Shown here: piece by piece, positions 2,788-23,482 of the stretch | Layout of the letters: every line of letters begins with the position of its first letter | How positions within the stretch are numbered: position 1 is the stretch's first letter | NCBI GenBank assembly: GCA_964429465.1 | Contig: CAYSCA010000002.1 | Span: 7,702-71,701 of the forward strand | Source of the DNA: an uncultured Rhodospirillaceae bacterium | GTDB lineage: Bacteria; Pseudomonadota; Alphaproteobacteria; Ferrovibrionales; Ferrovibrionaceae | Reading direction: 5' to 3' | Length of the DNA stretch: 64,000 bases | Translations under genes and position numbers: made by a program | The notes under the pieces: generated by a model | Seen by the model: only the letters and a program-made list of their open reading frames with translations | Told to the model about the DNA's origin: nothing | The model's database searches: none

Positions 2788-2802
2788 CGGGTCGGCCTTG
2801 TC

Positions 2803-7920: not shown

Positions 7921-9077
7921 TGCGGGAAGCGGTCCTGTAGCGCTTGGCGAACCAGCCGGACAACCTCTTCGGTGCCATTGAGGTTGATGCCGGCCGCCGC
8001 AGAAGGGGGGGCAGCCAGCGCCGCATCTATGGCGGCTGCCAGGCGCTCCGCACTCAGTTCGGATTCGCGCACCACCTGCAGCAATCCGCGCTGTGCCAGC
8101 AGATTGGCCCGCAAGGCCTGTTCGGTTTCCTCGCCGCCCGAGAACGGGACCACGACGCCCCGGGCGCGGCTGGCGAGCGTCTCCATAACGGTATTGTATC
8201 CGGCCTTGCTGATCGACAGCAGGCACCGGCGCAGCATGCCGGGAAAATCCGGCCGCGCCGGCTCGATGACGACCCCCGGGCCGGCCATGTTCCGCAGCGC
8301 CTCTATGGCCTCCGGCTGCTCGTGGCGGCTGAGCAGCAGGCGCCACGGCTTGTCACGGGCCGCCGAAAGCGGCCGCGCGGCCAGCGCCGTGCGGAACAGC
8401 GGCATCCCCACGGCACCGCCTCCCGCCGAGACCAGCACCTCGCCGGTGCCAGCCTCGGTGATCGGTACATTATGCTGTTCGACGATATAGCCAGTATATT
8501 GCAGTTGCCCCCTGATCTGTTCAGCCAGGGGAAAGGTCTGCTCGAAGGGGATGACGGCCGGATCGCCGTGAACGAGCGCGCCATCGTAAAACTGCTGCAG
8601 CCAGGCAATGGTGTCGAGGTCGCGCTCCGGCTTCGAGCGGTCGACGAGAATGTCGCGTACGGAACTGAAGACCAGCGGGCGCGGCCTCATCTCCCGGATG
8701 CGCGTGAGCAGCGGCAGCAATTCGAACCGCATGGGGCGGCGCCCGAACGGAAACAGTTCGGTGAGAAGGACATCCGGCGCAATCTCGTCGAACATGCGAT
8801 TCAGGATGCTCAGCCGGGCAGCACGCCAATCATCGGTTATCGGTATGTTGTTTTCGTCGAGCAGCACGCGAAAGCTGGCATCCTGGGCGCGCGCGGGCGG
8901 TAGTTGCAGGAAGCGGATGCCGTCCAGGCCGTGCAGGGTGGGATCGGGCATGCCGCCGGAGACCAGCGTGGTCTCGAAACCGCCGCGCGCCATCGACCGG
9001 GCGATCGCCGAAACACGATGCAGATGCCCGACACCGAGCAGATGCTGCACATAGATCATGACGCGCGGCATCGCCAT
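7917..9077 (-). CDS. glycosyltransferase, GT-B fold (MurG/GT28-like, 'GxGHxxR' type)
   Basis: 386 aa. N-terminus 'VMIYVQHLLGVGHLHRVSAIARSM' is paralogous to the 12068-13294 product. The C-terminal half is GT28_C-like. Confidence 0.7.
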   Translation of the reverse strand: MAMPRVMIYVQHLLGVGHLHRVSAIARSMARGGFETTLVSGGMPDPTLHGLDGIRFLQLPPARAQDASFRVLLDENNIPITDDWRAARLSILNRMFDEIAPDVLLTELFPFGRRPMRFELLPLLTRIREMRPRPLVFSSVRDILVDRSKPERDLDTIAWLQQFYDGALVHGDPAVIPFEQTFPLAEQIRGQLQYTGYIVEQHNVPITEAGTGEVLVSAGGGAVGMPLFRTALAARPLSAARDKPWRLLLSRHEQPEAIEALRNMAGPGVVIEPARPDFPGMLRRCLLSISKAGYNTVMETLASRARGVVVPFSGGEETEQALRANLLAQRGLLQVVRESELSAERLAAAIDAALAAPPSAAAGINLNGTEEVVRLVRQALQDRFPQ

Positions 9078-9082
9078 CGCCC

Positions 9083-9664
9083 TTACTCCAGCGGAATGTT
9101 CATGGCCAGAGGCTCCGGCCGGCCATCGGCGGTGATGCCGAATTCATGCAGGCAGCTCCAGTTCACCTTGACCGGAGGTTTCCCGATCATCGGCCAGCCG
9201 TAAGCCTGGGCCAGGATCGCGCGAATGACGCCCTTGTGGGTTATGGCGCCGACGTCAACCGTGCCGGCACCCAGCCGCTGCAGCCAGGGACGCAGTCGCT
9301 CCTGCACCTGTCGCGGACTCTCGCCGCCCGGAGGCTGGAAATCCAGACCGCGCTGTTCATTGACGGCGAAGGCTTCACCATACTGGGTATTCAATTCTGC
9401 CAGGGTTCGGCCCTCATAGGCACCCCAGTCCATTTCGGTGAGCGCCGGCTCCACCGCAGCCTCGATGCCGAGCAGGGCGGCGGTTTCCTGCGCGCGGCGT
9501 AGCGGGCTGACCAGCCAGGCTCTCTGTCGGTAGGGTGCGGGCAAGCGGAGGCCGGTGAAAGCCGCGCGGCCGGCCTCGGAAAGCGGCATGTCTGCGCGGC
9601 CCTGGATGCGACGGTCCGCGTTCCAGCCCGTCGGCGCGTGTCGCAGTAGCGCAAGCCGGATCAT
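9083..9664 (-). CDS. histidine phosphatase family protein (phosphoglycerate-mutase-like)
   Basis: 193 aa. N-terminal 'LALLRHAPTGWN' is an RH(G/A)-type catalytic motif. ATGA overlap with the upstream GT at 9661-9664. Confidence 0.8.
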   Translation of the reverse strand: MIRLALLRHAPTGWNADRRIQGRADMPLSEAGRAAFTGLRLPAPYRQRAWLVSPLRRAQETAALLGIEAAVEPALTEMDWGAYEGRTLAELNTQYGEAFAVNEQRGLDFQPPGGESPRQVQERLRPWLQRLGAGTVDVGAITHKGVIRAILAQAYGWPMIGKPPVKVNWSCLHEFGITADGRPEPLAMNIPLE

Positions 9665-10800
9665 GCCGGCAATCCCAGTTCCACGAATACTGCGGCGAGC
9701 CGCTCCTGCGCGGCGGTCATCGACAGGTTGCGCGCCACATGGGCCTTGGCAGCCCGCGACATGTTCGTTCGCAGTTCCGGCTGCACCAGCAGATGGTCCA
9801 GTGCTTCCGTCAGGGCATCGGTGGAGTCGTCCTCCGCCAGCCAGCCGGTCACACCGTGCTGCACGATATCCGGAACGCCGCGGGTATTCACCGATAAGAC
9901 CGGCAGACCGGCTGCCTGCGCCTCCAGGAGCGCCATGCCATACGCTTCATTCACCGCAGGCCACACATACAGATCGCTGGCCGAGTAGAATTCGGCTAGT
10001 GCCGCCGGGGCCAGCTGTCCCGCGAAACATGTCCGCGCGCGGGCAGGTTCGAATGCCGCCTTGACGCTGGCGAGCTCGGGCCCGTCGCCGACCAGTATCG
10101 CATGCCATCGCAAATCCAGGCATTGCTCCAGCGTTCCGGCAAGACGGCGATAAGAGGCGAGCTTGTCACCCGCGCGCATCATGCCAACGGCCAGAAGCCA
10201 GGGGCAATCTTGCGGCAGCCGGAATGTTTCGGCGATGGACCGGCGATGCTTCTCGCGCTGCGACGCGGCGTGCGCGAAAGGTGTAGGATCGAGGAAGGGC
10301 GGCAGGGAACGGACTTTGGCGGCTCCGGCGAAGGCGGCCAGACAGGCGCTGTCGAGCGTTGTGATCGCCAGCAGCACATCGGCGGCGCGGATCGCCACGC
10401 CTGCCTGAGCATATCCGGCCGCCCATGCACCCTGCTGCCGCTTGGGCGCCACCGAAGGTTCGGCGATTACATAGGGCAGCCCGAACCGGGCTTTCAGGGC
10501 GGGGCCGAGATAATCGGCAGCCTTGTGATAGACGTGGTAGGTGAACAGCAGGTCGGGGCGAGTTGCCGCATCGGCTTCCCAGACCGCAGTCAGGCGTGCA
10601 ACTTCCCTGCGCCCCTCTACGCCGGTTGCGGCTTCCGCGGCCGGATCGCCGGTGCGGTTATAGCTGCGCAATGCCGAAATGACGCTCACCTGATGGCCCA
10701 TGCCTTGCAGAGCTTCGATCAGAAGGCGGGCCATGCGCCGGTCGCCGGAAGGGGCAGGGTGGTCCGGCGGCTTGAGCGGTGCGTAGAAGCCGATTTTCAT
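9661..10800 (-). CDS. glycosyltransferase family 4
   Basis: 379 aa. GT4 C-terminal motif 'EAYGMALLEAQAAGLPVLSVNTRGVPDIV'. Confidence 0.85.
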   Translation of the reverse strand: MKIGFYAPLKPPDHPAPSGDRRMARLLIEALQGMGHQVSVISALRSYNRTGDPAAEAATGVEGRREVARLTAVWEADAATRPDLLFTYHVYHKAADYLGPALKARFGLPYVIAEPSVAPKRQQGAWAAGYAQAGVAIRAADVLLAITTLDSACLAAFAGAAKVRSLPPFLDPTPFAHAASQREKHRRSIAETFRLPQDCPWLLAVGMMRAGDKLASYRRLAGTLEQCLDLRWHAILVGDGPELASVKAAFEPARARTCFAGQLAPAALAEFYSASDLYVWPAVNEAYGMALLEAQAAGLPVLSVNTRGVPDIVQHGVTGWLAEDDSTDALTEALDHLLVQPELRTNMSRAAKAHVARNLSMTAAQERLAAVFVELGLPA

Positions 10801-10803
10801 GGC

Positions 10804-12039
10804 TCAGGACGCCAGCCCGAAGCGTCGTGCCAGCTCGGCAATGCCGGCGGACATGCCGAACTTATTGCGCACCTTCGCCGCGCCGGCCGCCCCGAGCCGG
10901 ACCCGCAATGCCGGATCCAGGATCAGGCGGCTCAGCGCCACGCCCAGCGCCTCGATATCGTCGGCAGGCACCAGCAGGCCGGTTTCGCCATCGACGATCA
11001 GCTCGGGAATTGCCGAGATGTCCGTGGCGGCGCAGGCCAGCCCCTGGCTCTGGGCTTCCATCAGTACGTTCGGCAGCCCGTCCATGTCGCCATCCCGGTC
11101 GCGCCGGCAGGCAAGGACAAAGGCGTCGGCGGCGCGATAGGCGGCTATCACGGCATCCTGCGCCTGCGCGCCCTGCCACTCGATCCGGTCCGCGATCCCG
11201 AGCTGCTGCGAAAGCGTCCGCAATTGCGGCAGCAGGGGCCCGCCGCCAACATGGATGAGTCGCCAATGCAGATCGCCGGGCAGCCGGGCCAATGCCTGCA
11301 GCAGCAGGTCGAAACCCTTCTTTTCCACAGCGCGGCCGACCGACAGCAGCCGCACCGGATCGGCGGGGTCGCGGCCATCGCGGTCCGGCCGCCAATGCGG
11401 CGGGTCGGGAAACCGCGTGAAGTCGACGCCGTGATAAACGAGGGCCACCTTGCCCGGATCGCCCAGCGCGGCGAGATGGGTAACGTTATGGGCCGTGCAG
11501 GTGACCACCCAGTCGCAATCGGCCAACTTCTCCCGTTTTTCCCATTCGGGCGTAATCCAGATGTCGCGGGCATGGGCGGAGGCCGTCCAGGGTATCTGGC
11601 GCACCATCGCGGCATACCGGGTCACCGAGCCGGGTGTATGGATGAAATGGGCATGAAGGCGCCGGAAATGCTCGGGCAGTTCGGCCGCGAGGACCAATGC
11701 CTGGCCGAAGCGGCGGATCCGGTTGGGCGTCAGGTCCCGCTTGAGGTCCCGCCACCATGTCGCCCGCGCCGTTTTGTATCCGGGCAGACGCCGGACTTGC
11801 CACCAGCAGCGCAGGACGCGCAGCGGCTCCTGATAAAGGTATTCCGGAAGGTAGAGCACTGACGCCCGAATACGGTCATGAAGGGGATGACGCTTGCGGT
11901 CGGTCGGATGGCGCAGGGACACGATCAGGATATCCAGCCCGCGTTCTTCCAATGCGGCGATTTCCTGGGCAATGAAGGTTTCCGACAGTCGCGGATAACC
12001 CTTGAGGACAAATGCAACGGGAGCTGCCACGCTCGACAT
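10804..12039 (-). CDS. glycosyltransferase family 4 (WcaL-like)
   Basis: Start set at ATG 12037-12039 ('MSSVAAPVAFVLKGYPRLSETFIAQEI'). GT4 motif 'GLPNVLMEAQSQGLACAATDISAIPELIVDGETGLLV'. The track ORF has a 41-aa over-extension. Confidence 0.8.
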   Translation of the reverse strand: MSSVAAPVAFVLKGYPRLSETFIAQEIAALEERGLDILIVSLRHPTDRKRHPLHDRIRASVLYLPEYLYQEPLRVLRCWWQVRRLPGYKTARATWWRDLKRDLTPNRIRRFGQALVLAAELPEHFRRLHAHFIHTPGSVTRYAAMVRQIPWTASAHARDIWITPEWEKREKLADCDWVVTCTAHNVTHLAALGDPGKVALVYHGVDFTRFPDPPHWRPDRDGRDPADPVRLLSVGRAVEKKGFDLLLQALARLPGDLHWRLIHVGGGPLLPQLRTLSQQLGIADRIEWQGAQAQDAVIAAYRAADAFVLACRRDRDGDMDGLPNVLMEAQSQGLACAATDISAIPELIVDGETGLLVPADDIEALGVALSRLILDPALRVRLGAAGAAKVRNKFGMSAGIAELARRFGLAS

Positions 12040-12067
12040 AGTCACTGAATGAAGGGGGATACGACTC

Positions 12068-13294
12068 TCAGCCGCGCAGCTCGACGATATTGTCGCCGGC
12101 GGGCGCCGTCGCCGGCCTGAGCCAGGGCAGGACCAGTCGGTCGACGTTGTCCAGGCCTTCAAGCAGGCCGGGGATCACCACCTCGGACGGGAGCGGCTGC
12201 CGCGGCAGGTGGCGCAATGCCGCGGCCATCGCGGCTGGGTCGTAGCTGCCGTCATCCTCTAGCATCCGCACCAGGCCAAGCTTTTCTGCGCGATGTGCCC
12301 GGATGAACTGCTCCATGCGGGGACGCTTTCGCGGCACGATAATGGCCCGCTTGTCCAGCGAGAGGATTTCACAAAAGGTGTTGTAGCCGCCCATGGCGAC
12401 GACGCCGACCGCATTCTGGACCAGATGCTCCATATGCGCATCAAATGTGATTGCCTCGACGCGCGGCAAGTGCGCAACGCGATTCAGGAATTCGATGCGG
12501 CGCTCGCGCTGCATGAACGGCCCGAGTACGATCAGCGCCGGATAGGGCAGGATTTCGTGGCTTTCGTAGGCGCGCAGCACCCAGTCGATCAGCCCTTCGC
12601 CATCGCCTCCGCCGCCCGGTGTCACCAGCAGAAAGGGGCGCTGGGTGATTTCAGGCAGCTGATGCTCGGGCGGGGTTTCAGCCGAGAAACGCGGCAGATA
12701 TCCGGTGTAGACGACTTTCCGGCGCACCCGTTCCGGCAGCGCGATCCCCTCCAGCGGGTCGCAGAACTGCGGCAGGCCGTAGACCCAGATCTGGTCGAAC
12801 AGATTCTTGAGGGCCGGCATGACATTCTTGCGTTCCCATTCCGGCGCGAGGGCGCTGGGTTCGTCCATGACGTCGCGCAGGCCGAGCACCAGCCGGGTGC
12901 CGCGAGCCTTCAGCATCTTCATGGTTTCCAGAACCTCGCCTCGGAGGCCAAGCGGCTCCTTGTCGACGATGAAAATATCGGGGTCGAAAATCCGAGCAGT
13001 ATGCTGAATGATCTCGGCCCGGATCTTCAGCGTCTCGTCAATGCCCATGGGCAGGTTAAGAGAAGTGTACTGACCATCCCGAAGCTTGATCACGCCGGGG
13101 ATACGGACGAAGTCCACCCGGCTGCGGAAATCGAAGCTGCCGATGATGGGGGAGCCAGAAATGATCAGGACCGACATGTCTCGGTGGCGTTCCACCAGAG
13201 CATGGGCCAACGTGCGGCATCGGCGCAAATGGCCCAAGCCGAAGGTGTCGTGGCTGTAGATCAGCACACGGGTTCCGTCGCTGCGCGATACCAT
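12068..13294 (-). CDS. glycosyltransferase, GT-B fold (MurG/GT28-like, 'GxGHxxR' type)
   Basis: Start set at ATG 13292-13294 ('MVSRSDGTRVLIYSHDTFGLGHLRRCRTLAHAL'), preceded by AAGGGGGG. Paralog of the 7917-9077 product. Confidence 0.75.
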   Translation of the reverse strand: MVSRSDGTRVLIYSHDTFGLGHLRRCRTLAHALVERHRDMSVLIISGSPIIGSFDFRSRVDFVRIPGVIKLRDGQYTSLNLPMGIDETLKIRAEIIQHTARIFDPDIFIVDKEPLGLRGEVLETMKMLKARGTRLVLGLRDVMDEPSALAPEWERKNVMPALKNLFDQIWVYGLPQFCDPLEGIALPERVRRKVVYTGYLPRFSAETPPEHQLPEITQRPFLLVTPGGGGDGEGLIDWVLRAYESHEILPYPALIVLGPFMQRERRIEFLNRVAHLPRVEAITFDAHMEHLVQNAVGVVAMGGYNTFCEILSLDKRAIIVPRKRPRMEQFIRAHRAEKLGLVRMLEDDGSYDPAAMAAALRHLPRQPLPSEVVIPGLLEGLDNVDRLVLPWLRPATAPAGDNIVELRG

Positions 13295-13471
13295 ACCGGG
13301 TACCCCCCTTGGGACCTCTGCCGGGACTATGGCACAGGCTCCCGCCCGAGGCCAAGGCCCTGACATATAGGTGATTCCCGCCACGTTCCGGGCCGGCCGC
13401 GGTCATTGGCGGCGGGGGCGGGCTGGGCTAAGGTCCTGCAATAATTCGGGAAGGCTACGGGGAAAGGCTCC

Positions 13472-16126
13472 GTGGAGAAGAATCTTTATCGTTTCATCCT
13501 GAAGCACAGTCTAAGGCAGCAGGTCATCATCGTCCTGCTCTCGGTCGCGTCCTTCATCCCCTATTACTATTACCTGAGCATGCCCAAGGCGATCGTTAAC
13601 CAGGGCATCGAGGGGAAGGATGTCGGTTTCCCGGTCGACCTGCTCGGGTTGGGCTGGGTGAGCCTGGATCATACCGGCTATCTGCTGGTCCTGTGTTTCG
13701 GCTTCCTTGTCCTGGTGCTGGTGCAGCAGGGCTTCAAATACGCGATCAACCTGTTCCAGGGGATTGCCGGCGAACGGATGCTGCGCCGGCTGCGATACAT
13801 CCTGTATGCCCAGATCCTCCGTTTTCCGCTGCCGACCTTTCGCCGCACCAGCCAGGGCGAGATCATTCCGATGGTGATCGCCGAGGTGGAACCCATCGGC
13901 GGTTTTATCGGCGAAAGCTTCGCGCTGCCGATCTTCCAGGGCGGCATGCTGCTGGTGATCTTCACCTTCCTGCTGATCCAGAATCCTTTGATGGCCCTTG
14001 CGGCCGTCTCGCTCTACCCGATCCAGTTCTACTTCGTCCCGAAGATGCAGGCCAAGGTGCGCGCCCTGGGCCGCGAACGGATCAAAAACCAGCGCCGGAT
14101 GTCCGATCGCATCGGCGAGTCCATCAGCGGCATCACCGAATTGCACGCCCATGATGCCTCGAACCGGATGCTCGCCGAATTTTCCCGCAGGCTGAGCGTG
14201 AGTTACTGGATCAGGGTCGAGATCTTCCAGCGTAAATTCATGATCAAGTTCCTGAATAACTTCATTCAGCAGCTTGGCCCGTTTTTCTTCTATACGATCG
14301 GCGGCTATCTGGTCATCAAGGGCAGCATGGATGTCGGTACGATCGTCGCCGCCGTGAATGCGCACAAGGAGATGGCGGCTCCCTGGAAGGAACTGCTCAA
14401 TCACTACCAGACGCGCGAAGACGTGAAGCAGAAATACGAGCAGGTGATCAGCCAGTTCGAGCCGGCCGGCATGCGCTCTCCCGACGACCAGCATGTCGAA
14501 CCCGAGGACGCTCCGCCGTTGTCTGGTGCCATCGTCGCGTCGGGCGTCGCATTGTTCGATGACCAGGGGCATCCGGTGCTCGAAGGTGTGAACCTGACTA
14601 TCCCCTGGCCGGCGCGTGTGGCGATCGTCGGCGACAATGGTCGCGACGAGTTCCTTCAGTTGCTGGCCCGCACGCTGGCGCCTTCCAGAGGAAAGGTGAC
14701 CATCAACAATCACAATCTCGCCGATCTGCCGGAAACGGTGACCGGACGGCGGCTGGCCTATGTCGGCCCCAGTGCCTATATCTTCAACACCACGCTCGGC
14801 GACAATCTTCTTTTCGGCCTGCGTCATCGGCCGCTGGTCGCGCGCGAGCTGACAGACGAGACATTGCGCCGCTACGAGCGTGAGCGGGCGGAAGCCCTTG
14901 CATCGGGTAATTCCGATCTTGATCCTGATGCCGACTGGACCGATTACGCCGCTGCCGGGGTGCAGAATCGCGACGAACTGCGCAACGCTGCCATTTCAGC
15001 GCTGCAGGTCGCGGCTTTCGACGAGGATGTCTACCAGATCGGCATGCGCGGCACGATCGATCCAGACCGCTATCCTGACGTCGCAGAACGGGTGCTGGAG
15101 GCGCGCCGGACATTCCGCAGCCGCCTGCGCGATGGCGAGCTGGCCGACCTGGTCGAGAGCTGGGATCCCAGGCGCTACAACAGCAACGCCACCGTCGCAG
15201 AGAATTTGATGTTCGGCACGGCGCGGAACGGCATCTATCACGAGGACAATCTTGCGCGCGACCCGCATGTGCTGAGCGTTCTCGATCAGGTTGGATTGCG
15301 GCGGCGCTTCCTTGAGATCGGTCACGAGGTAGCCAGCACGATGGTGGAACTGTTCGCCGACCTGCCTCCGGACCATGAATTCTTCCAGCAATTCAGCTTC
15401 ATCTCCTCGGAGGACCTGCCCGAGTACAAGGACCTGCTCCTTCGCGCCAAACCCGAGTCCCTGGATCAGCTGGCGGAGCCCGACAGGGTGCGGCTCATGT
15501 CCTTGCCGTTCAAGCTTGTCCTGGCCCGTCACCGCCTGGGGCATTTCAACGAAGATGAGCGCGAGGCCATTCTGCGGGGACGCGAGATCTTCGCCCAGAC
15601 CTTGCCGGAGGCACGGCGCGACGCGATCGCGTTCTTTGACCCGGAGTATTTTACCGTCTCGTCCAGCATCGTCGACAATATCCTGTTCGGCCGGGTTGCC
15701 TACGGGCAGGCCCAGGCGCAGGAAAAGATCGGCCATGTCATCGCAGATGTCGTCGAGCAGCTGAAGCTGCGCGAGCCGATCATCGAGATCGGCCTGCAGT
15801 TCGAGGTCGGCATCGCAGGCGCGCGCTTGAGCGCTGCGCAGCGGCAGAAGCTCGCGATCGCCCGGGCAATGCTCAAGCGGCCCGACTGGCTGATGCTGTC
15901 GGAATCCACGGCGGCATTGGACCCGCGCAGTCATGCTGCGGTCATCCGCGCCGTCACCCAGGCACGCACTTTAAGCGGTCTGATATGGTCATTGCAGCGG
16001 GTTGCCGACTGCGAGGAATTCGACACGATTCTCGTTCTGGAGAATGGACGGGTGATCCAGATGGGTTCCTTTGCCGACCTGTCGGAGCGACAGGGGCGGT
16101 TCAAAGACATGCTGGTGCCGGCATGA
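13472..16126 (+). CDS. ABC exporter-fold protein (N-terminal 6-TM ABC_membrane domain plus atypical, degenerate, expanded NBD)
   Basis: 884 aa with a GTG start after GGGGAAAGG. The TMD covers aa 1-330. Walker A is replaced by 'GDNGRDEF', signature is 'LSAAQ', Walker B is 'WLMLSE', H-loop is 'SLQR'. About 400 aa separate Walker A from the signature. Confidence 0.8.
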   Translation: MEKNLYRFILKHSLRQQVIIVLLSVASFIPYYYYLSMPKAIVNQGIEGKDVGFPVDLLGLGWVSLDHTGYLLVLCFGFLVLVLVQQGFKYAINLFQGIAGERMLRRLRYILYAQILRFPLPTFRRTSQGEIIPMVIAEVEPIGGFIGESFALPIFQGGMLLVIFTFLLIQNPLMALAAVSLYPIQFYFVPKMQAKVRALGRERIKNQRRMSDRIGESISGITELHAHDASNRMLAEFSRRLSVSYWIRVEIFQRKFMIKFLNNFIQQLGPFFFYTIGGYLVIKGSMDVGTIVAAVNAHKEMAAPWKELLNHYQTREDVKQKYEQVISQFEPAGMRSPDDQHVEPEDAPPLSGAIVASGVALFDDQGHPVLEGVNLTIPWPARVAIVGDNGRDEFLQLLARTLAPSRGKVTINNHNLADLPETVTGRRLAYVGPSAYIFNTTLGDNLLFGLRHRPLVARELTDETLRRYERERAEALASGNSDLDPDADWTDYAAAGVQNRDELRNAAISALQVAAFDEDVYQIGMRGTIDPDRYPDVAERVLEARRTFRSRLRDGELADLVESWDPRRYNSNATVAENLMFGTARNGIYHEDNLARDPHVLSVLDQVGLRRRFLEIGHEVASTMVELFADLPPDHEFFQQFSFISSEDLPEYKDLLLRAKPESLDQLAEPDRVRLMSLPFKLVLARHRLGHFNEDEREAILRGREIFAQTLPEARRDAIAFFDPEYFTVSSSIVDNILFGRVAYGQAQAQEKIGHVIADVVEQLKLREPIIEIGLQFEVGIAGARLSAAQRQKLAIARAMLKRPDWLMLSESTAALDPRSHAAVIRAVTQARTLSGLIWSLQRVADCEEFDTILVLENGRVIQMGSFADLSERQGRFKDMLVPA

Positions 16127-16148: not shown

Positions 16149-16610
16149 ATGAGCCTGAACGAAGAAGTCGAATTGCTGCGGCGTATTCCGCTTTTTGCCA
16201 AGATCGAGCCCTCGAAACTCAAGCTGCTTGCCTTCACCAGCCAGCGGTTGACCTATAAACCTGGCGATGTGCTGTTTCGGCAGGGTGACCCGGGAGATGC
16301 CGCTTTCGTCATTATCGGCGGCGAGGCCAATGTCGTGGTTGATACGCCTGGCGGACCGCTTACCGTCGCTCATCTCAAGCAGAATGACTTTGTCGGCGAG
16401 ATCGCTATTTTGTGCGATGTTCCGCGAACGGCAACAGTTTCGGCCGCCAGCGAGGTTACCACCCTGCGGATCGAGAAAGACCTCTTCTTCCGGCTGATCA
16501 ACGACTTCCCCCAGATCGCCGTGGAGATCATGCGCGTTCTGGCGCAGCGACTGGAGCGCACCACCGCCGATCTCAGAGCCCTCTCTGCCCGGGTGCAAAA
16601 CCCCGCATGA
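16149..16610 (+). CDS. cyclic nucleotide-binding domain protein (stand-alone CNB domain, no HTH)
   Basis: Start at ATG 16149 after GAGGGAG ('MSLNEEVELLRRIPLFAKIEP...GDVLFRQGDPGDAAFVIIGGE...FVGEIAILCDVPRTATV'). The 153 aa leave no room for a DNA-binding domain. Confidence 0.85.
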   Translation: MSLNEEVELLRRIPLFAKIEPSKLKLLAFTSQRLTYKPGDVLFRQGDPGDAAFVIIGGEANVVVDTPGGPLTVAHLKQNDFVGEIAILCDVPRTATVSAASEVTTLRIEKDLFFRLINDFPQIAVEIMRVLAQRLERTTADLRALSARVQNPA

Positions 16611-17095
16611 GCCGGCTGGACAGCTTCATCCGGCGTCTTGAGGCGCAGCGCATTGTGCTGAACTGGGCGGTGGAGCAGATCGCAGGGCAGCCGGGGATCA
16701 TACTCGAACTGGGCCTCGGGAATGGCCGTACCTACGACCATCTGCGCGAGAAACTGCCGGGTCGGACCATTTTTGCTTTCGATCGCGCCATCAACGCCAA
16801 TCCGCGCTCGGTTCCGCCGGAGCAATACATGGTGTTGGGTGATTTTGTCGAAACCCTGCCGGCTTTCGCGCAGCAGCATCCTTCCGGGGCTGCGCTGATC
16901 CACAGCGATGCCGGACTTGGCGATCCGGAAGCCAATGCACGCCAGGTCCGGATGCTCAGTGATCTGATCCCGCCACTGGCAGCATTGGGAGCGCTGATCA
17001 TAAGCGATCAGAAACTCGTACATCCGGCGCTGCAGCAGCAACCATTGCCGCCCCTTGTCAATCCGGACAGGTATTTCATCTATCGGCGGACCTGA
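16607..17095 (+). CDS. class I SAM-dependent methyltransferase (small)
   Basis: Start at ATG 16607 forms an ATGA overlap with the CNB gene stop. Motif I 'IILELGLGNGRT'. 162 aa. Confidence 0.65.
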   Translation: MSRLDSFIRRLEAQRIVLNWAVEQIAGQPGIILELGLGNGRTYDHLREKLPGRTIFAFDRAINANPRSVPPEQYMVLGDFVETLPAFAQQHPSGAALIHSDAGLGDPEANARQVRMLSDLIPPLAALGALIISDQKLVHPALQQQPLPPLVNPDRYFIYRRT

Positions 17096-17135
17096 CAATA
17101 AATATACGTATAATACCGAGAGCGGGAGGGGGGAC

Positions 17136-19268
17136 ATGAAACCGCAGAGGAAACGGATCGCCATTCTGGGTGGCGGCGTCGCCGCGTTGACCAGCGCCTT
17201 CTATCTGGCCAGCCGGCCCGGTGCTGCCGAACTATACGACATCACGATCTATTCGCTCGGCTGGCGGCTGGGCGGTAAATGTGCCACCGGGCGCAATCTG
17301 GATATGGCATACCGGATCGAGGAACACGGCATCCACGGTTTCCTTGGATCCTACTACAACACATTGTCCCTGATGACGCGGACCTATGACATGCTTGGCC
17401 GCAAGCCGGGAGAGCCGCTGGCGAGCTTTGAGGAGGCCTTCTATCCGATCGACTCTATTGTGTGCTGGGAATTCCGCGACAGCCGCTGGGTGAGCTGGCC
17501 GATCACCATGCCGCGCAACAGCCTGAAACCCTGGGAGCCGGAATCCCTTCCGGAGCTGCGGGACTGGATAAAGGCACTGATTACGTTCATGGGCGGGCTG
17601 TTCGAGCATCATGCCCGAAACATGTCCACCGGCATGGATATGGGCCTGGCGGGCCGGCTCATGAAGCGCCTCCTGAATGAGGCGGAATCGGTGATCGAGG
17701 GGCGTGGCCATGCTCTGCTGGAAGCGATCTGGCTGGGCTTCAAGCATGAGGCCGAGCGCCTGATGGAAGGCAACGATGCCCTGCGCCATCTGTACATGAC
17801 GCTGGATTACTTCCTGACCATTCTGCGCGGCGTTATCAAGGATGATGTGATCAACAAGGGTTTCGACCAGCTGGACGACGAGAATTTCTCGGACTGGTTC
17901 GCCCGTCACGGCGGATCGATGCTGACGATCTCCTCGCCGCTCAGCATGAATACGCCAAATCTGTCGTACCAGTACCCGGACGGCGATACCACGAGGCCGC
18001 CGCAGATGGCCGCCGGTGCATATCTGCACTGGACGCTTCGTGAATTTGCCTATCTGGGTTCCTTTGGCTGGCTGTTTGCCGCCGGCACCGGCGATACCGT
18101 TGTGGCGCCGCTTTACCTCGTGCTGAAGCGGCTGGGCGTGAAATTCGAGCTGTTCCACAAAGTGCGCGAGATCACCGCGGCAGGCAAATCCGTCGACGAG
18201 GTGGTCTTCGATATCCAGGCGACGCCGAAAGATCCCGCCAAAGGCTATGATCCGCTGATCGAGCTGCCGCTGCAGCAGTTCGGCGGCCGGAGCTTGCCGG
18301 TCTGGCCCGATCGCCCCCTCTACGACCAGCTGGTCGAAGGGGAGGCGATGAAGGCCGCCGGACCCGATATCGAATCCTACTGGTCGTCATGGAAGCCTGT
18401 TGCCGAAAAGCGACTCAAGGCCGGCCGCGACTTCGACACGGTGATCTGCGCGATCTCCATCGGCGCACTGCCGATCATTGCGCCGCGGCTGATGCAGGCC
18501 GATCCAAGATGGCCGGCCATGACCGAAGCGATCAAGACGGTGCAGACCCAGACGCTGCAGATCTGGATGAAGCGCACGCTCAAGGAGATGGGACTCCCAT
18601 TCGACTTCAAGAACTATGACCGGCTGATCGGCGCAACCTTCGTCAACCCGATCGACGGCGTGGCAGATTTCACCGATCTGATCCCGGTGGAAGCCTGGCC
18701 GGAAGACAACGCGCCCCGGTCGCTGCTCTATTTTTCCGGCGCCACGCCGCAATACGGCGCGCAACCTCCGTTCAGCGATCACGATTACCCCAAACGCGAA
18801 TATGCCCGGGTAAAATACCAGGCGCAGCAATATCTGCAGGCCAGCATGGGTATCCTGTTGCCGAAAGCGGTGACCAACGCCGTCAATCCGCCGGGAGATC
18901 AGATCGGATTCGACTTTTCCGAACTGGTTTGCCTGAAAAACGACGCAGCCACGTTAGGCGTGGCGCGGCTGGATCAGCAATTCTGGAAGCCGAATATCGA
19001 TCCCAGCGAACGCTACGTCACCTCGCCGCCGGGCAGCACCAAATACCGCCTGAAGGCCTGGGATTCCGGTTTCAGCAACCTCGTCCTGGCCGGCGACTGG
19101 ATCTATACCGGGCTGAATGTCGGCAGTTTCGAGGGGGCCTGTATGGGCGGCAAGCTGGCGGCGCACGCGATAGATCCTGAAGCGATGCCATTGCAATCGG
19201 TGTACGGTTACCCGCCGTCGCAGGGACGGCCGGCAGTGACTCCGGAGCCGGAGATCACACCAGCCTGA
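17136..19268 (+). CDS. FAD/NAD(P)-binding oxidoreductase (amine-oxidase / phytoene-desaturase-like), 710 aa
   Basis: ATG 17136 follows GGGAGGGGGG. Dinucleotide fold 'RIAILGGGVAALTSAFYLA'. C-terminal FAD motif 'LVLAGDWIYTGLNVGSFEGACMGG'. Confidence 0.75.
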   Translation: MKPQRKRIAILGGGVAALTSAFYLASRPGAAELYDITIYSLGWRLGGKCATGRNLDMAYRIEEHGIHGFLGSYYNTLSLMTRTYDMLGRKPGEPLASFEEAFYPIDSIVCWEFRDSRWVSWPITMPRNSLKPWEPESLPELRDWIKALITFMGGLFEHHARNMSTGMDMGLAGRLMKRLLNEAESVIEGRGHALLEAIWLGFKHEAERLMEGNDALRHLYMTLDYFLTILRGVIKDDVINKGFDQLDDENFSDWFARHGGSMLTISSPLSMNTPNLSYQYPDGDTTRPPQMAAGAYLHWTLREFAYLGSFGWLFAAGTGDTVVAPLYLVLKRLGVKFELFHKVREITAAGKSVDEVVFDIQATPKDPAKGYDPLIELPLQQFGGRSLPVWPDRPLYDQLVEGEAMKAAGPDIESYWSSWKPVAEKRLKAGRDFDTVICAISIGALPIIAPRLMQADPRWPAMTEAIKTVQTQTLQIWMKRTLKEMGLPFDFKNYDRLIGATFVNPIDGVADFTDLIPVEAWPEDNAPRSLLYFSGATPQYGAQPPFSDHDYPKREYARVKYQAQQYLQASMGILLPKAVTNAVNPPGDQIGFDFSELVCLKNDAATLGVARLDQQFWKPNIDPSERYVTSPPGSTKYRLKAWDSGFSNLVLAGDWIYTGLNVGSFEGACMGGKLAAHAIDPEAMPLQSVYGYPPSQGRPAVTPEPEITPA

Positions 19269-19323
19269 TACTGGTGGGCTCCTGCCGTGTTGGTTACCAT
19301 TCCGTGCTTTGGGGATTGAATTG

Positions 19324-20340
19324 ATGGGTGCGCCCGGGCCGCTGAATCTGCTGACTGATGTCGAAGGACTGGCTGTGGGCCATGCCGTCGATGAAAGGGT
19401 GCGGACAGGCGTTACCGTCATTCTGCCCGCTGGGCGCGCGGCCTGCTCGGTCGATGTCCGCGGCGGCGGATCGGGAACCCGCGAAACCGACCTGCTGCGG
19501 CCGGAAGCAGCAGCGCAAGCGGTCGACGCCATCTGCCTGGCTGGCGGATCGGCATTCGGCCTCGATGCCGCCGCCGGCATGATGCCATGGCTGGCCAGGC
19601 AGCGGCGCGGCTTCCAGGTGCAGGGCTTCACGGTCCCAATCATCCCGGCGGCGATTCTGTTCGACCTCCATAACGGCGGCGACAAAGACTGGGCCGACAA
19701 TCCGCCCTATCGGCGCCTCGGCCGGGAAGCATGCGAGAATGCCGCCGCGGGCGCCTTTGCACTCGGCAATGCCGGCGCCGGCTACGGAGCGGCCGCCGGC
19801 AGGCTGAAGGGCGGCCTTGGCAGTGCATCCTGGGTAGAAGCCGACGGGCTGGTGGTTGCTGCGCTGATGGCCGTCAATTCGGTGGGCAGCGTGCTGACGC
19901 CGGACAATGAGGGCTTCTGGGCGGCGCCCTACGAACAGAACGGCGAATTCGGGGGGCAGCCGATGGGCGCCAACCGCGGGAATCTGCCGCTTGGCGTTCC
20001 GCCGGAAGCGCGTATCGGCGGGCATACCTGCATCGGCGTTGTGGCCACTAATGCCCCGCTGGACAAAACCGCTCTTCGCCAGGTTGCCGCCATGGCCCAT
20101 GATGGCCTTGCCCGGTCAGTCCGGCCGGTCCATACGCCCTTTGACGGCGATACCATCTTTGCGCTGGCCACTGCTGCGTGGCAGGATGAGCGGGGCGATG
20201 ACGCCAGGCCCTGGCTGATCGCCAGAGTTGGCAGTATCGCCGCCGATTGTGTCGCGCGGGCCGTCGGGCGGGGTGTCTGGATGGCGGAGGGAATCGGCCA
20301 TCTGGGCTCGATCAGAGAGATGGGATTCAGAGGGAGCTGA
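19324..20340 (+). CDS. P1/S58 family peptidase (DmpA-type L-aminopeptidase/D-esterase)
   Basis: 'LLTDVEGLAVGHA...GVTVILP...GGGSGTRETDLL' is the typical DmpA family pattern. ATG 19324 is preferred over the TTG at 19309. Confidence 0.8.
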   Translation: MGAPGPLNLLTDVEGLAVGHAVDERVRTGVTVILPAGRAACSVDVRGGGSGTRETDLLRPEAAAQAVDAICLAGGSAFGLDAAAGMMPWLARQRRGFQVQGFTVPIIPAAILFDLHNGGDKDWADNPPYRRLGREACENAAAGAFALGNAGAGYGAAAGRLKGGLGSASWVEADGLVVAALMAVNSVGSVLTPDNEGFWAAPYEQNGEFGGQPMGANRGNLPLGVPPEARIGGHTCIGVVATNAPLDKTALRQVAAMAHDGLARSVRPVHTPFDGDTIFALATAAWQDERGDDARPWLIARVGSIAADCVARAVGRGVWMAEGIGHLGSIREMGFRGS

Positions 20341-23405: not shown

Positions 23406-23482
23406 GCGCTCGTAGCTCAGCTGGATAGAGCACCAGACTACGAATCTGGGGGTCAGGAGTTCGAATCTCTTCGAGCGCGCCA
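23406..23482 (+). tRNA. tRNA-Arg (anticodon ACG), CCA encoded
   Basis: Cloverleaf read by eye: acceptor GCGCTCG/CGAGCGC, D arm GCTC-AGCTGGATA-GAGC, anticodon stem CCAGA/TCTGG with loop CTACGAA, T arm AGGAG-TTCGAAT-CTCTT, discriminator G, then CCA. Confidence 0.9.

What the first reader, a model, noticed from the sequence alone, without database searches (positions are those of the whole stretch)
13472..16126. ABC exporter-fold protein with every ATPase motif degenerate and a triplicated helical subdomain
The N-terminal 330 aa are an ordinary type-IV exporter TMD. The NBD is not ordinary.

- Walker A GxxGxGK(S/T) reads 'GDNGRDEF' (aa 386-393, nt 14627-14650).
- The signature LSGGQ reads 'LSAAQ' (nt 15827-15841).
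- Walker B hhhhDE reads 'WLMLSE'.
- The H-loop His position reads Gln ('SLQR').
- About 400 aa separate Walker A from the signature, against roughly 100 in canonical NBDs.

The inserted region contains three copies of the post-Q-loop motif: 'YIFNTTLGDNLLFG' (nt ~14780), 'YNSNATVAENLMFG' (~15176) and 'FTVSSSIVDNILFG' (~15650). Each copy is followed by a helical stretch. The Q-loop/helical subdomain has therefore been triplicated.

I see no second ABC half-transporter gene nearby to supply a consensus site. A homodimer would have no competent ATP site. Possible roles are a nucleotide-independent or cNMP-gated translocator, a scaffold or a sensor.
Basis: seen in the sequence. Interest (0 to 1): 0.75.

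Follow-up and report, generated by a model that had tools for sequence, protein, structure and literature searches.

The report
ATPase-dead ABC exporter with cNMP partner
This gene encodes a conserved alphaproteobacterial membrane protein built like an ATP-driven ABC exporter, but its ATP-site motifs are lost, its motor domain is enlarged by an internal triplication, and it is always paired with a cyclic-nucleotide sensor and a sugar-transferase gene block, so it probably moves or gates a glycoconjugate under second-messenger control rather than ATP control.

Summary
ORF 13472..16126(+) is an intact 884-aa type-IV ABC exporter-fold protein.

- **Motifs.** Walker A, Q-loop Gln, LSGGQ, Walker B Asp and H-loop His are all missing. 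The P-loop is also two residues short.
- **Insertion.** About 260 aa sit inside the NBD. They carry two extra copies of the Q-loop strand and post-Q-loop motif, each followed by helices.
- **Not an artefact.** Orthologues of about 884 aa occur in at least 570 species genomes of the scan. All named ones are Alphaproteobacteria.
- **Family pattern.** None of the 120 closest orthologues has a consensus Walker A, and 118 lack the Walker B Asp. The TMD and the second insert unit are the best conserved parts.
- **CNB partner.** A single-domain cNMP-binding gene follows in 79 of 80 loci. It is fused to the C-terminus in sister lineages, often with a PelD-like degenerate GGDEF.
- **Gene neighbourhood.** A five-gene block (GT28-like, GT4, GT4, histidine phosphatase, GT28-like) stays adjacent through an inversion. 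No partner half-transporter is nearby.

Best reading: a second-messenger-gated translocator or gate, independent of ATP hydrolysis, for the block's unknown glycoconjugate. Transport itself is inferred. This is a new variant of a known kind. No Pfam or NCBIfam family, solved structure or paper was found.

The parts
13472..16126 (+). Gene for the 884-aa ABC-exporter-fold protein with degenerate NBD (GTG start, stop included)
   Evidence: ORF list. Pfam ABC_membrane 76.8 bits and ABC_tran 42.8 bits. 100%-identical NCBI protein P0001 and 119 full-length homologues.
13472..14461 (+). Transmembrane domain, aa 1-330 (six long helices). It is the best conserved part of the protein.
   Evidence: Pfam 71-294. 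AF2 helices H5-329. Foldseek hits to TmrAB, Rv1273c/72c, PCAT1 and P-gp. 77 of 330 columns invariant among 61 orthologues.
14531..14824 (+). N-terminal half of the NBD (aa 354-451): beta-subdomain, remnant P-loop and first Q-loop unit
   Evidence: Aligns to MsbA profile up to position 432. Only 4% of columns invariant.
14630..14653 (+). Degenerate Walker A 'GDNGRDEF' (aa 387-394): two residues shorter than GxxGxGK(S/T), no Lys, no Ser/Thr
   Evidence: PDB alignment. Family alignments. Statistics. No other P-loop in the protein.
14777..14818 (+). Repeat unit 1 motif 'YIFNTTLGDNLLFG' (aa 436-449). The Q-loop Gln position just upstream is Pro433.
   Evidence: AF2 E428-431, H442-446, E451-456.
14825..15607 (+). 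Insertion of about 260 aa (aa 452-712), absent from canonical NBDs. It is all-helical apart from the unit-2 strands, with no Pfam family and no PDB relative.
   Evidence: Gap in the NCBIfam alignments. 856 clusters in 1.8e9 representatives hold it. Insert model pLDDT 77 with best Foldseek E 3.8. Profile against PDB sequences gave 0 hits. Pfam on the pieces found nothing.
15176..15217 (+). Repeat unit 2 motif 'YNSNATVAENLMFG' (aa 569-582), the best conserved of the three copies across the superfamily
   Evidence: hhalign unit 2 vs unit 3 E 3.9e-9. AF2 E561-563, H575-580, E582-584.
15347..15394 (+). Near-invariant insert motif 'ELFADLPPDHEFFQQF' (aa 626-641). A second one, 'LPFK..ARHRLG', lies at aa 678-690. 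Both are candidate ligand or partner surfaces.
   Evidence: Invariant columns E626 L627 F628 A629 P632 H635 F638 and P679 F680 R686 H687 R688. Conservation 0.92 in block 621-640.
15650..15691 (+). Repeat unit 3 motif 'FTVSSSIVDNILFG' (aa 727-740), followed by the canonical helical subdomain and signature
   Evidence: (profile resumes about aa 701).
15827..15841 (+). Degenerate signature 'LSAAQ' (aa 786-790). The following QRQK is invariant.
   Evidence: Q790 in 120 of 120 orthologues, while positions 788 and 789 are mostly Ala.
15887..15922 (+). Degenerate Walker B 'WLMLSE' (Asp replaced by Ser810, Glu811 kept) and intact D-loop 'TAALD' (D817)
   Evidence: Walker B Asp present in only 2 of 120 orthologues. 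D817 present in 120 of 120.
15995..15997 (+). H-loop position: Gln842 in place of His
   Evidence: Among 120 orthologues Q 54, H 45, D 13.
16149..16610 (+). Single-domain cyclic-nucleotide-binding protein (153 aa), 22 nt after the ABC stop. Phosphate-binding cassette GEIAILCDVPRTAT is intact.
   Evidence: Pfam cNMP_binding 74 bits. Follows the ABC gene in 79 of 80 loci. Fused C-terminally in relatives. PBC motif in 84 of 84.
16607..17095 (+). Methyltransf_17 (PF12692) SAM methyltransferase-like gene. Its ATG overlaps the CNB stop (ATGA), making it the third gene of the operon.
   Evidence: Pfam E 1e-55. Coordinates and overlap. Present after CNB in 52 of 80 loci.
12068..13384 (-). GT28-like (MJ1255/VC2487-type) glycosyltransferase, divergent from the ABC gene and first gene of the GT block. 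The start may be 13366 or 13294.
   Evidence: Conserved next to the ABC gene in 75 of 80 loci.
10804..12162 (-). GT4 glycosyltransferase (EpsE/WcaL-like, below cut-offs). The start is probably 12039.
   Evidence: Present in 75 of 80 loci.
9661..10800 (-). GT4 glycosyltransferase. Best (sub-threshold) similarity is to BshA and MshA, enzymes that glycosylate small acceptors.
   Evidence: Present in 71 of 80 loci.
9083..9664 (-). Histidine phosphatase (branch 1), overlapping the preceding GT4 gene by 4 nt
   Evidence: Pfam His_Phos_1 129.8 bits. NCBIfam hits all below cut-off. Present in 69 of 80 loci.
7917..9077 (-). Second GT28-C-domain glycosyltransferase, last gene of the block. In Azospirillum it sits after the CNB gene on the ABC strand.
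   Evidence: Present in 75 of 80 loci, with the relocated position in L040, L041, L045 and L068.

Best explanation
**Shown.**
- The gene encodes a conserved member of an unnamed alphaproteobacterial family of ABC-exporter-fold half-transporters.
- Its nucleotide-binding domain has lost the residues needed to bind and hydrolyse ATP in the canonical way. In this Ferrovibrio-type lineage the P-loop is also shortened by two residues.
- The NBD has gained about 260 aa made of two extra Q-loop and post-Q-loop units with helices.
- The gene forms an operon with a single-domain cNMP-binding protein and a Methyltransf_17 gene.
- It is locked in synteny to a five-gene glycosyltransferase and phosphatase block.
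- In sister lineages the cNMP-binding domain is fused to the C-terminus of the NBD. It often carries a further degenerate GGDEF domain that keeps the c-di-GMP I-site.

**Inferred mechanism.**
- The protein acts as a homodimer in the inner membrane.
- It is the translocation or gating component for the still unknown glycoconjugate made by the adjacent glycosyltransferases.
- The NBD no longer serves as an ATP motor. It serves as a dimerisation and regulatory platform. The conserved D-loop, the conserved signature helix and the conserved insert surfaces fit that role.
- NBD closure is controlled by the CNB protein in response to cAMP or cGMP, and by c-di-GMP in the fused relatives.
- Closure switches the well conserved TMD between inward-facing and outward-facing states.
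- Movement of the product would then be energetically downhill, as facilitated export or flipping.
For: **Fold.** Pfam PF00664 plus PF00005. AF2 pLDDT 81.8 and pTM 0.75. Foldseek finds only type-IV exporters.

**Loss of ATP chemistry.**
- The residue-level alignment shows the losses, and no alternative motifs exist in the protein.
- Among 120 orthologues, none has GxxGxGK[ST] and 54 carry the 2-aa P-loop deletion.
- The Walker B Asp is present in 2 of 120.
- Signature Gly-Gly is rare and the H-loop His is present in 45 of 120.
- D-loop Asp and signature Gln are present in 120 of 120.

**Selection has moved away from the ATP site.** Invariant columns are 23% in the TMD and 16% in insert unit 2. 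They are 4% in the Walker A half of the NBD.

**Insertion and triplication.**

**CNB partnership.**
- The CNB gene is adjacent in 79 of 80 loci.
- C-terminal fusion was found in 9 of 9 long relatives scanned with Pfam, and most of the 120 listed sister-clade hits carry the domain in precomputed Pfam.
- The phosphate-binding cassette is intact in 84 of 84.
- Class III cyclase genes lie directly downstream in L081 and L066.

**c-di-GMP link.** In GGDEF-fused relatives the A-site is intact in 0 of 76 and the I-site RxxD in 73 of 76.

**Link to the GT block.**
- The block is adjacent in about 75 of 80 loci.
- It stays adjacent when the block is inverted relative to the ABC gene in L082.
- It stays adjacent when one GT moves behind the CNB gene in Azospirillum.
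- This is the only membrane-transporter-like gene of the cluster.

**No partner half-transporter.**
Against: - No experiment exists. Transport, its substrate and its direction are inferred only from fold and synteny.
- An ABC exporter fold working without ATP has, to my knowledge, no proven precedent for a homodimer.
- Distant family members keep GxxGSG(K/R)(E/D), and a few keep GxxGxGKST with a Walker B D-E. Nucleotide binding may therefore persist in parts of the family, and might persist here in a non-canonical form.
- The glycosyltransferases give only sub-threshold family matches, so the product is unknown.
- CNB-fold domains can bind other ligands. HetC's binds ppGpp in vitro (PMC10986499).
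- A partner encoded elsewhere in the genome cannot be excluded from a 64-kb window.
Confidence: 0.45

Rival explanations
1. Pseudo-transporter acting only as a membrane-anchored signalling or scaffold subunit. The exporter fold no longer moves anything. It recruits or allosterically activates the cytoplasmic glycosyltransferases in response to cNMP or c-di-GMP, much as PelD controls the GT4 enzyme PelF. Alternatively it senses a membrane or periplasmic cue and relays it to the CNB and GGDEF modules.
For: - All catalytic motifs are degenerate.
- The most conserved cytoplasmic surfaces lie in the novel insert.
- C-terminal fusions are to signalling domains: CNB, and degenerate GGDEF with an I-site.
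- Some sister loci are purely signalling neighbourhoods with a cyclase and response regulators (L081).
Against: - The TMD is the most conserved region, with 23% invariant columns including polar clusters such as KxxxKFxNNFxQQ. That is more than a mere anchor would need.
- The cluster encodes no other transporter for a product made by four glycosyltransferases.
Confidence: 0.3
2. Still an ATP-powered exporter. Either it pairs with a canonical half-transporter encoded elsewhere, giving one consensus site as in TM287/288, TmrAB or Rv1273c/72c. Or it binds ATP non-canonically, with Arg391 replacing Lys and an acidic residue replacing the Walker A Ser/Thr while Walker B Asp becomes Ser.
For: - Heterodimeric exporters tolerate one degenerate site (PMC12038006, listed).
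- Many family members keep GxxGSG(K/R)(E/D) and the catalytic Glu. Glu811 is retained in 92 of 120.
- The coupled change of Walker A S/T to D/E and Walker B D to S/N could preserve Mg2+ ligation (my inference).
Against: - No exporter-type partner lies in the window or within +-8 kb in 80 orthologous loci.
- This lineage lacks two P-loop residues and the Lys, yet the rest of the protein stays under strong constraint.
- Signature Gly-Gly and the H-loop His are also missing, so even a heterodimer would have a crippled consensus site on the signature side.
Confidence: 0.12
3. A cyclic-nucleotide efflux or homeostasis channel. The CNB module senses cytoplasmic cNMP and opens the exporter-fold pore to release cNMP itself. 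The GT block would be an unrelated conserved neighbour.
For: - Class III cyclase genes lie immediately downstream of the ABC-CNB unit in L081 and L066, and one lies at the window edge.
- Eukaryotic ABCC4 and ABCC5 export cNMPs (my knowledge; hMRP5 paper listed).
Against: - Cyclase adjacency was seen in only a few loci, whereas the GT block is adjacent in about 75 of 80 and survives rearrangements.
- It does not explain the degenerate GGDEF I-site module.
Confidence: 0.06
4. Decaying pseudogene or assembly artefact.
For: Degenerate motifs and an odd insertion, if seen in isolation.
Against: - The ORF is intact.
- Orthologues of about 884 aa at 47-91% identity occur in at least 570 species genomes.
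- 856 clusters at 50% identity hold the insert.
- Many columns are invariant.
Confidence: 0.01

Closest known systems
Homodimeric type-IV (ABCB-like) bacterial exporters and flippases: MsbA, PglK, NdvA/ChvA glucan exporter, HepA
   Same: - TMD (PF00664) followed by NBD (PF00005) in one polypeptide.
- Best NCBIfam similarities are MsbA (175 bits) and HepA (153 bits).
- Predicted fold matches solved type-IV exporters.
- Genomic association with glycoconjugate synthesis, as for PglK, NdvA and HepA (my knowledge).
   Different: - Scores are far below every equivalog cut-off.
- Walker A, Q-loop Gln, LSGGQ, Walker B Asp and H-loop His are all missing.
- A 260-aa insertion with two extra Q-loop units sits in the NBD.
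- It has an obligate CNB partner.
- Conservation is inverted, with the TMD above the NBD.
Heterodimeric or asymmetric ABC exporters with one degenerate site: TM287/288, TmrAB, Rv1273c/72c, TAP1/2, CFTR
   Same: The same kinds of substitution occur in Walker B, signature and H-loop. These structures are top Foldseek hits. PMC12038006 describes such a degenerate site.
   Different: Those proteins always keep one consensus ATP site supplied by a second, usually adjacent, gene or half. Here a single gene with no neighbouring partner would give two dead sites.
CFTR and SUR: ABC proteins converted into a gated channel or a regulatory subunit
   Same: An exporter fold is re-used for gating or regulation rather than pumping. 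Control comes from a cytoplasmic regulatory module linked to cyclic-nucleotide signalling, which for CFTR is PKA phosphorylation of the R domain (my knowledge; CFTR papers listed).
   Different: CFTR and SUR still need ATP binding at the NBD dimer and keep one hydrolytic site. Here the regulator is a directly cNMP-binding domain, and the ATP motifs are lost on the only NBD type present.
PelD (and PopA-type) degenerate GGDEF c-di-GMP receptors controlling polysaccharide synthesis
   Same: Fused relatives carry a GGDEF domain with the A-site intact in 0 of 76 and the I-site RxxD in 73 of 76. They sit next to GT4 glycosyltransferases (L082). This parallels PelD with the GT4 enzyme PelF (my knowledge).
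   Different: The window protein itself has no GGDEF domain. The membrane part is an ABC exporter fold, not the PelD TM/GAF architecture. c-di-GMP binding is untested.
HetC and the TIGR03796/03797 family: ABC exporters carrying a cNMP-binding-fold domain
   Same: A CNB-fold regulatory domain is attached to a type-IV ABC exporter and is required for function (PMC10986499).
   Different: In HetC the CNB domain is N-terminal and binds ppGpp in vitro. The protein has a C39 peptidase domain, and its ATPase catalytic residue is essential. Here the CNB is C-terminal or a separate protein, with a canonical cNMP phosphate-binding cassette, no peptidase and a dead ATPase site.
C-terminal regulatory domains of ABC importer ATPases: MetN C2, ModC, MalK
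   Same: A ligand-binding domain placed at the C-terminus of the NBD controls whether the NBDs can close, as in trans-inhibition (my knowledge). The fused relatives place the CNB at the same topological position.
   Different: Those are importer ATPases with intact catalytic sites. The ligands are transported substrates or regulators, not second messengers.

Membership tests
Type-IV ABC exporter fold (PF00664 TMD + PF00005 NBD) | ABC_membrane six-helix TMD | tested here: met
   PF00664 76.8 bits against cut-off 28. AF2 long helices. Foldseek E about 1e-17 to TmrAB, Rv1273c/72c and PCAT1.
Type-IV ABC exporter fold (PF00664 TMD + PF00005 NBD) | ABC_tran NBD fold C-terminal to the TMD | tested here: met
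   PF00005 42.8 bits against cut-off 25, in two stretches split by the insertion.
Catalytically competent ABC ATPase | Walker A GxxGxGK(S/T) | tested here: not met
   The protein reads GDNGRDEF, two residues shorter, with no Lys and no Ser/Thr. No other P-loop is present. None of 120 orthologues has it.
Catalytically competent ABC ATPase | Q-loop glutamine | tested here: not met
   Pro433 at the aligned position. Gln is present in 30 of 120 orthologues.
Catalytically competent ABC ATPase | Signature LSGGQ | tested here: not met
   LSAAQ. Positions 3 and 4 are mostly Ala in the family.
Catalytically competent ABC ATPase | Walker B hhhhD followed by the catalytic E | tested here: not met
   WLMLSE has Ser810 in place of Asp, with the Glu retained. 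Asp is present in 2 of 120 orthologues.
Catalytically competent ABC ATPase | H-loop histidine | tested here: not met
   Gln842.
Catalytically competent ABC ATPase | D-loop (SALD) at the dimer interface | tested here: met
   TAALD, with D817 invariant in 120 of 120.
Catalytically competent ABC ATPase | Measurable ATP binding and hydrolysis | not testable with these tools
   Needs purified protein.
MsbA / HepA / NdvA(ChvA) / CydDC equivalogs (NCBIfam) | Score at or above the curated equivalog cut-off | tested here: not met
   MsbA 175 against 602. HepA 153 against 725. Glucan exporter 120 against 733. CydD 127 against 435.
Heterodimeric ABC exporter with one degenerate site | A second, different half-transporter gene (usually adjacent) supplying a consensus site | tested here: not met
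   None in the 64-kb window. None within +-8 kb in 80 orthologous loci. The rest of the genome was not searchable.
cNMP-binding domain protein (PF00027), for the downstream gene 16149..16610 | CNB beta-barrel with phosphate-binding cassette G-E-x-A...R-[ST]-A | tested here: met
   PF00027 74 bits against 27.5. GEIAILCDVPRTAT, with the motif in 84 of 84 homologues. Ligand identity untested.
PelD-like c-di-GMP receptor | Degenerate GGDEF domain retaining the RxxD I-site | tested here: not met
   The window protein has no GGDEF domain. The feature is met only in fused relatives, with A-site 0 of 76 and RxxD 73 of 76.
CNB-bearing PCAT exporters (HetC, TIGR03796/03797) | N-terminal CNB domain plus C39 peptidase domain, with an active ATPase | tested here: not met
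   No peptidase or N-terminal CNB domain. TIGR03796 149 bits against 853 and TIGR03797 131 against 709.

The most novel reading that the evidence does not exclude
An ABC-exporter fold that has given up ATP altogether. A homodimeric half-transporter with two dead nucleotide sites would have its conformational switching driven or gated by cyclic-nucleotide second messengers. The signals would be cAMP or cGMP through a docked or fused CNB domain, and c-di-GMP through a PelD-like GGDEF in relatives. The triplicated Q-loop and helical module would replace the ATP sandwich as the dimerisation and coupling device. That would make it the first second-messenger-gated translocator of the ABC class, serving an uncharacterised alphaproteobacterial glycoconjugate pathway.
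Probability: 0.3. Interest if true: 0.85.

Novelty: new variant of a known kind. Interest (0 to 1): 0.72.

Why it matters
ABC exporters are defined by ATP-driven NBD dimerisation. Known degenerate sites are always backed by one consensus site.

This is a widespread, strongly conserved family in which a single-gene exporter has lost every catalytic motif. In exchange it has gained a novel NBD expansion and second-messenger-binding modules.

If the reading is right, two things follow:
- The exporter fold can be operated by something other than ATP, or it can be recycled as a receptor or gate.
- An uncharacterised five-gene glycoconjugate pathway, present in the Rhodospirillales-type lineages sampled (Azospirillum, Ferrovibrio) and in Sneathiella, SAR116 and relatives, would be under cAMP, cGMP or c-di-GMP control.

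The family also offers a natural series from a near-canonical to a deleted P-loop. That series could be used to study how ATPase sites decay.

Tried and rejected
- **Hidden motifs.** I looked for a Walker A, Walker B or LSGGQ elsewhere in the protein. None was found.
- **Partner half-transporter.**
  - Motif scan of all ORFs.
  - Family HMMs for TMD and NBD against six-frame ORFs of the window.
  - The same HMMs against 85 loci.
  - Only importer-type ATPases appeared (a YejF-like double NBD at 4704..6770 and an NBD at 62576..63514).
  - The TMD HMM is not sensitive to distant exporters: it missed the T1SS exporter in L084. The partner test therefore rests on the NBD-position scan.
- **Identifying the insert.**
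  - Pfam on the whole protein and on pieces.
  - NCBIfam.
  - Profile against PDB sequences.
  - Separate AF2 model plus Foldseek against the PDB (best E 3.8).
  - No relative was found. Unit 2 is linked to the Q-loop region only by profile-profile comparison with unit 3.
- **3-D placement of the repeats.** I could not determine which of the three Q-loop copies occupies the canonical position, or where the CNB docks. Model coordinates and PAE are not available, and no multimer prediction is on hand.
- **Literature.** Six full-text searches found no description of this family. Only the HetC precedent was relevant.
- **Naming the GT-block product.** All NCBIfam matches are far below cut-off. The similarity of one GT4 to BshA/MshA, together with an adjacent phosphatase, is a hint only.
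- **Look-up of the Magnetospira protein P0350.** It gave nothing.
- **Non-coding features.** Rfam and tRNA scans found nothing in the region.

Full report
**1. Observation**

The ORF 13472..16126(+) is intact and encodes 884 aa from a GTG start. Its N-terminus, MEKNLY, is shared with the homologues.

Pfam finds ABC_membrane at aa 71-294 (76.8 bits) and ABC_tran split into two stretches (42.8 bits). NCBIfam exporter models align to aa 36-451 and again from about aa 701 to 878. This leaves roughly 250-260 aa with no counterpart after the Q-loop. All scores are far below the equivalog cut-offs; MsbA scores 175 against 602.

A residue-level alignment to solved ABCB exporters gives the following.

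| Motif | Canonical | This protein |
|---|---|---|
| Walker A | VGSSGCGKST | VGDNG--RDEF (aa 387-394, nt 14630-14653) |
| Q-loop | Gln | Pro433 |
| Signature | LSGGQ | LSAAQ (nt 15827-15841) |
| Walker B | hhhhDE | WLMLSE (Ser810, Glu811 kept) |
| D-loop | SALD | TAALD, intact |
| H-loop | His | Gln842 |

No other P-loop, Walker B or signature string exists in the protein.

The pattern [ST][ILV]x[DE]N[ILV][LM]FG occurs three times here. It occurs nowhere else in 66,888 aa of six-frame ORFs of the window. One of 20,000 shuffles of the protein yields even one match.

Profile-profile comparison of family sub-alignments gives these results:
- Unit 2 (aa 553-712) against unit 3 (aa 713-884): E 3.9e-9, probability 96%. 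The match covers the preceding helix, the strand, the motif and the first following helices.
- Unit 1 against unit 2: E 6.6e-5.
- Unit 1 against unit 3: E 6.4e-4.

The AF2 model has mean pLDDT 81.8 and pTM 0.75, with the NBD and insert at about 90. It gives each unit the same strand, loop, short helix, strand pattern followed by helices: E428-431/H442-446/E451-456, E561-563/H575-580/E582-584 and E719-721/H733-738/E740-742.

The repeat is a real internal triplication of the Q-loop region, clearest for units 2 and 3.

**2. It is a conserved family, not an artefact**

The 120 best homologues are all about 877-952 aa and 49-100% identical. Named ones are Ferrovibrio (70-91%), Sneathiella, Oceanibacterium and Marinibaculum.

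The 80 loci kept include Ferrovibrio, Sneathiella, Azospirillum, Inquilinus, Geminicoccaceae and SAR116. The window is therefore from a Ferrovibrio-like member of the Rhodospirillales.

The insert alone (aa 451-704) finds 856 clusters among 1.8 billion 50%-identity representatives. Named distant members are also Alphaproteobacteria: Camelimonas and Hyphomicrobiales.

**3. The degeneracy is a family trait with a gradient**

Among the 120 closest orthologues:
- None has GxxGxGK[ST].
- 54 have the two-residue P-loop deletion seen here.
- 47 have GxxGxG(K/R) followed by an acidic residue.
- The Walker B Asp is present in 2 of 120 (Ser 90, Asn 22).
- Signature positions 3 and 4 are mostly Ala.
- The H-loop His is present in 45 of 120.
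- The D-loop Asp and the signature Gln are both present in 120 of 120.
- The Walker B Glu is present in 92 of 120.

In 54 more distant full-length representatives, Walker A ranges from canonical (GTPGSGKST with ILILDEA in P0256) to unrecognisable. None combines a consensus Walker A, signature and H-loop. All keep three repeat units, and unit 2 (YNxNA[ST]xxEN[LI][LM]FG) is the best conserved motif of all.

Conservation is inverted relative to ordinary ABC exporters:

| Region | Invariant columns among 61 orthologues |
|---|---|
| TMD (aa 1-330) | 23% |
| Walker A half of the NBD (aa 354-451) | 4% |
| Insert unit 1 (aa 452-552) | 4% |
| Insert unit 2 (aa 553-712) | 16% |
| C-terminal NBD half (aa 713-884) | 12% |

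The insert carries near-invariant strings, ELFADLPPDHEFFQQF and LPFK..ARHRLG.

The insert has no Pfam or NCBIfam family and no sequence relative in the PDB. A separate model of it (pLDDT 77) has no significant Foldseek match.

**4. Partners and context**

*Operon.* Downstream, 22 nt after the stop, lies a 153-aa protein that is only a cNMP-binding domain (74 bits). Its phosphate-binding cassette, GEIAILCDVPRTAT, is intact. A Methyltransf_17 gene follows, with its ATG overlapping the CNB stop.

*Conservation of the neighbourhood in 80 orthologous loci.*

| Neighbour | Loci with it |
|---|---|
| CNB gene after the ABC gene | 79 (the exception is a truncated contig) |
| Methyltransf_17 gene | 52 |
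| GT28-like, GT4 (10804) and GT28-C genes | 75 each |
| GT4 (9661) | 71 |
| Histidine phosphatase | 69 |

*Fusions.* All nine relatives of about 1030-1156 aa scanned with Pfam carry the CNB domain fused to the C-terminus, one of them with a GGDEF domain as well. A whole sister clade has TMD-NBD(insert)-CNB (about 1030 aa) or TMD-NBD(insert)-CNB-GGDEF (about 1180 aa).

In the GGDEF-fused forms the A-site GG[DE]EF is absent in 76 of 76, while RxxD at the I-site position is kept in 73 of 76. This is the pattern of c-di-GMP receptor domains such as PelD (my knowledge).

*Adjacency survives rearrangement.*
- One GGDEF-fused gene (L082) sits directly after the same five-gene GT and phosphatase block. 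There the block is inverted, so that it is co-directional with the ABC gene.
- In Azospirillum loci one GT gene has moved behind the CNB gene on the ABC strand.

*Cyclases.* Class III nucleotide cyclase genes lie immediately after the ABC-CNB unit in L081 and L066. A cyclase fragment lies at the window's left edge.

*No partner.* No exporter-type partner gene is present in the window or within +-8 kb in the 80 loci.

**5. How it most likely works**

Shown:
- An exporter-fold membrane protein with a decayed ATP site and an expanded NBD.
- A genetic and, by fusion, physical partnership with a cNMP-binding domain.
- Tight linkage to a glycosyltransferase and phosphatase block.

Inferred:
- It is a homodimer that forms the translocation or gating step for the block's product.
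- The retained D-loop, signature helix and coupling regions suggest that NBD association still drives the TMD switch.
- Association would be governed by the CNB module. That module sits at the same C-terminal position as the regulatory domains of MetN, ModC and MalK (my knowledge).
- In relatives a c-di-GMP-binding GGDEF would add control, rather than ATP.
- Without hydrolysis, movement must be downhill, as facilitated export or flipping of a product made in the cytoplasm.
- The conserved (K/R)(D/E)(D/E) string in the remnant P-loop might occupy the phosphate site as an internal mimic. This is speculation.

I give this composite reading 0.45. The rivals are:
- A non-transporting scaffold or sensor that activates the glycosyltransferases (0.30).
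- A still ATP-powered exporter, through a distant partner or a non-canonical site (0.12).
- A cNMP efflux channel (0.06).
- A pseudogene or artefact (0.01, effectively refuted).

**6. Comparison with what is known**

By fold it belongs with type-IV ABC exporters. It fails every catalytic-motif criterion of a competent ABC ATPase and every NCBIfam equivalog cut-off.

It differs from heterodimeric exporters with one degenerate site (TM287/288, TmrAB, Rv1273c/72c; PMC12038006). It lacks both a partner and any consensus site.

CFTR and SUR are functional analogies, as the fold is re-used there for gating or regulation. PelD is the analogy for the fused GGDEF.

HetC is the only described CNB-bearing ABC exporter I found. 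Its CNB is N-terminal and binds ppGpp, and its ATPase is essential (PMC10986499).

Six literature searches found no description of this family.

**7. Verdict**

The object is a new variant of a known kind: an unnamed, widespread alphaproteobacterial family of ATPase-degenerate ABC exporter-fold proteins, partnered with a CNB domain and carrying a triplicated Q-loop module.

Function and substrate remain unknown and need experiments. Interest is 0.72.

Noticed in passing
window 3..581 (+), cut by the window start: This is the C-terminal part of a class III adenylate/guanylate cyclase catalytic domain, 34% identical to the cyclase that directly follows the CNB-fused ABC gene in L081. A homologous cyclase also directly follows the CNB gene in L066 (11178-12386). 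It may be the local source of the CNB ligand, but here it lies 13 kb away.
   Followed up: partly
window 596..6770 (-): A YejABEF-like peptide ABC importer operon: two permeases, an SBP_bac_5 protein and a double-NBD ATPase with oligo_HPY domains at 4704..6770. Its ATPase gene is found in 44 of 80 orthologous loci, usually beside the GT block, and also flanks the fused gene in L082. This is probably conserved chromosomal order rather than shared function.
   Followed up: partly
window 17055..19268 (+): A 737-aa FAD/NAD-binding amine-oxidase or phytoene-desaturase-like gene lies between the Methyltransf_17 gene and a peptidase-like gene at 19309..20340 that I did not scan. Among 80 related loci only L008 has it, so it looks like a lineage-specific insertion into the conserved neighbourhood.
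   Followed up: no
window 16607..17095 (+): A Methyltransf_17 (PF12692) gene is translationally coupled to the CNB gene through an ATGA overlap, and is present in 52 of 80 loci. In sister locus L084 the gene after the fused ABC-CNB is a SAM_HAT (SAM hydroxide adenosyltransferase-like) protein. This recurring SAM-related neighbour has no known role.
   Followed up: partly
L081 8284..14191; L084 and L085: CNB-fused sister-clade genes sit in signalling neighbourhoods without the GT block. In L081 these are a single-domain response regulator upstream, then a cyclase and a LuxR-type response regulator downstream. In L084 and L085 they sit beside a type I secretion system with a large RTX-like protein. 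The ABC-CNB module has therefore been recruited to more than one pathway.
   Followed up: partly
window 9661..9664 and 10800..10804; 12039..12162 versus 12068: The GT4, GT4 and phosphatase genes are tightly packed: a 4-nt overlap between the GT4 at 9661 and the phosphatase, and a 3-nt gap between the two GT4 genes. The long ORF calls for 10804..12162 and 12068..13384 overlap by 95 nt. Homologue alignment suggests later starts, 12039 and 13294 or 13366.
   Followed up: partly
window 23406..23482 (+): tRNA-Arg(ACG) is the only RNA gene found in the window by ARAGORN and by Rfam at gathering thresholds.
   Followed up: no
family alignment, aa 387-394 and 810 of the window protein: Across the family the Walker A Ser/Thr is replaced by Asp or Glu, while the Walker B Asp is replaced by Ser or Asn. 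The pattern is GxxGSG(K/R)(E/D) with hhhh(S/N)E. This coupled swap could be compensatory for Mg2+ ligation, or the acidic residues could mimic phosphate. It is unexplained.
   Followed up: no
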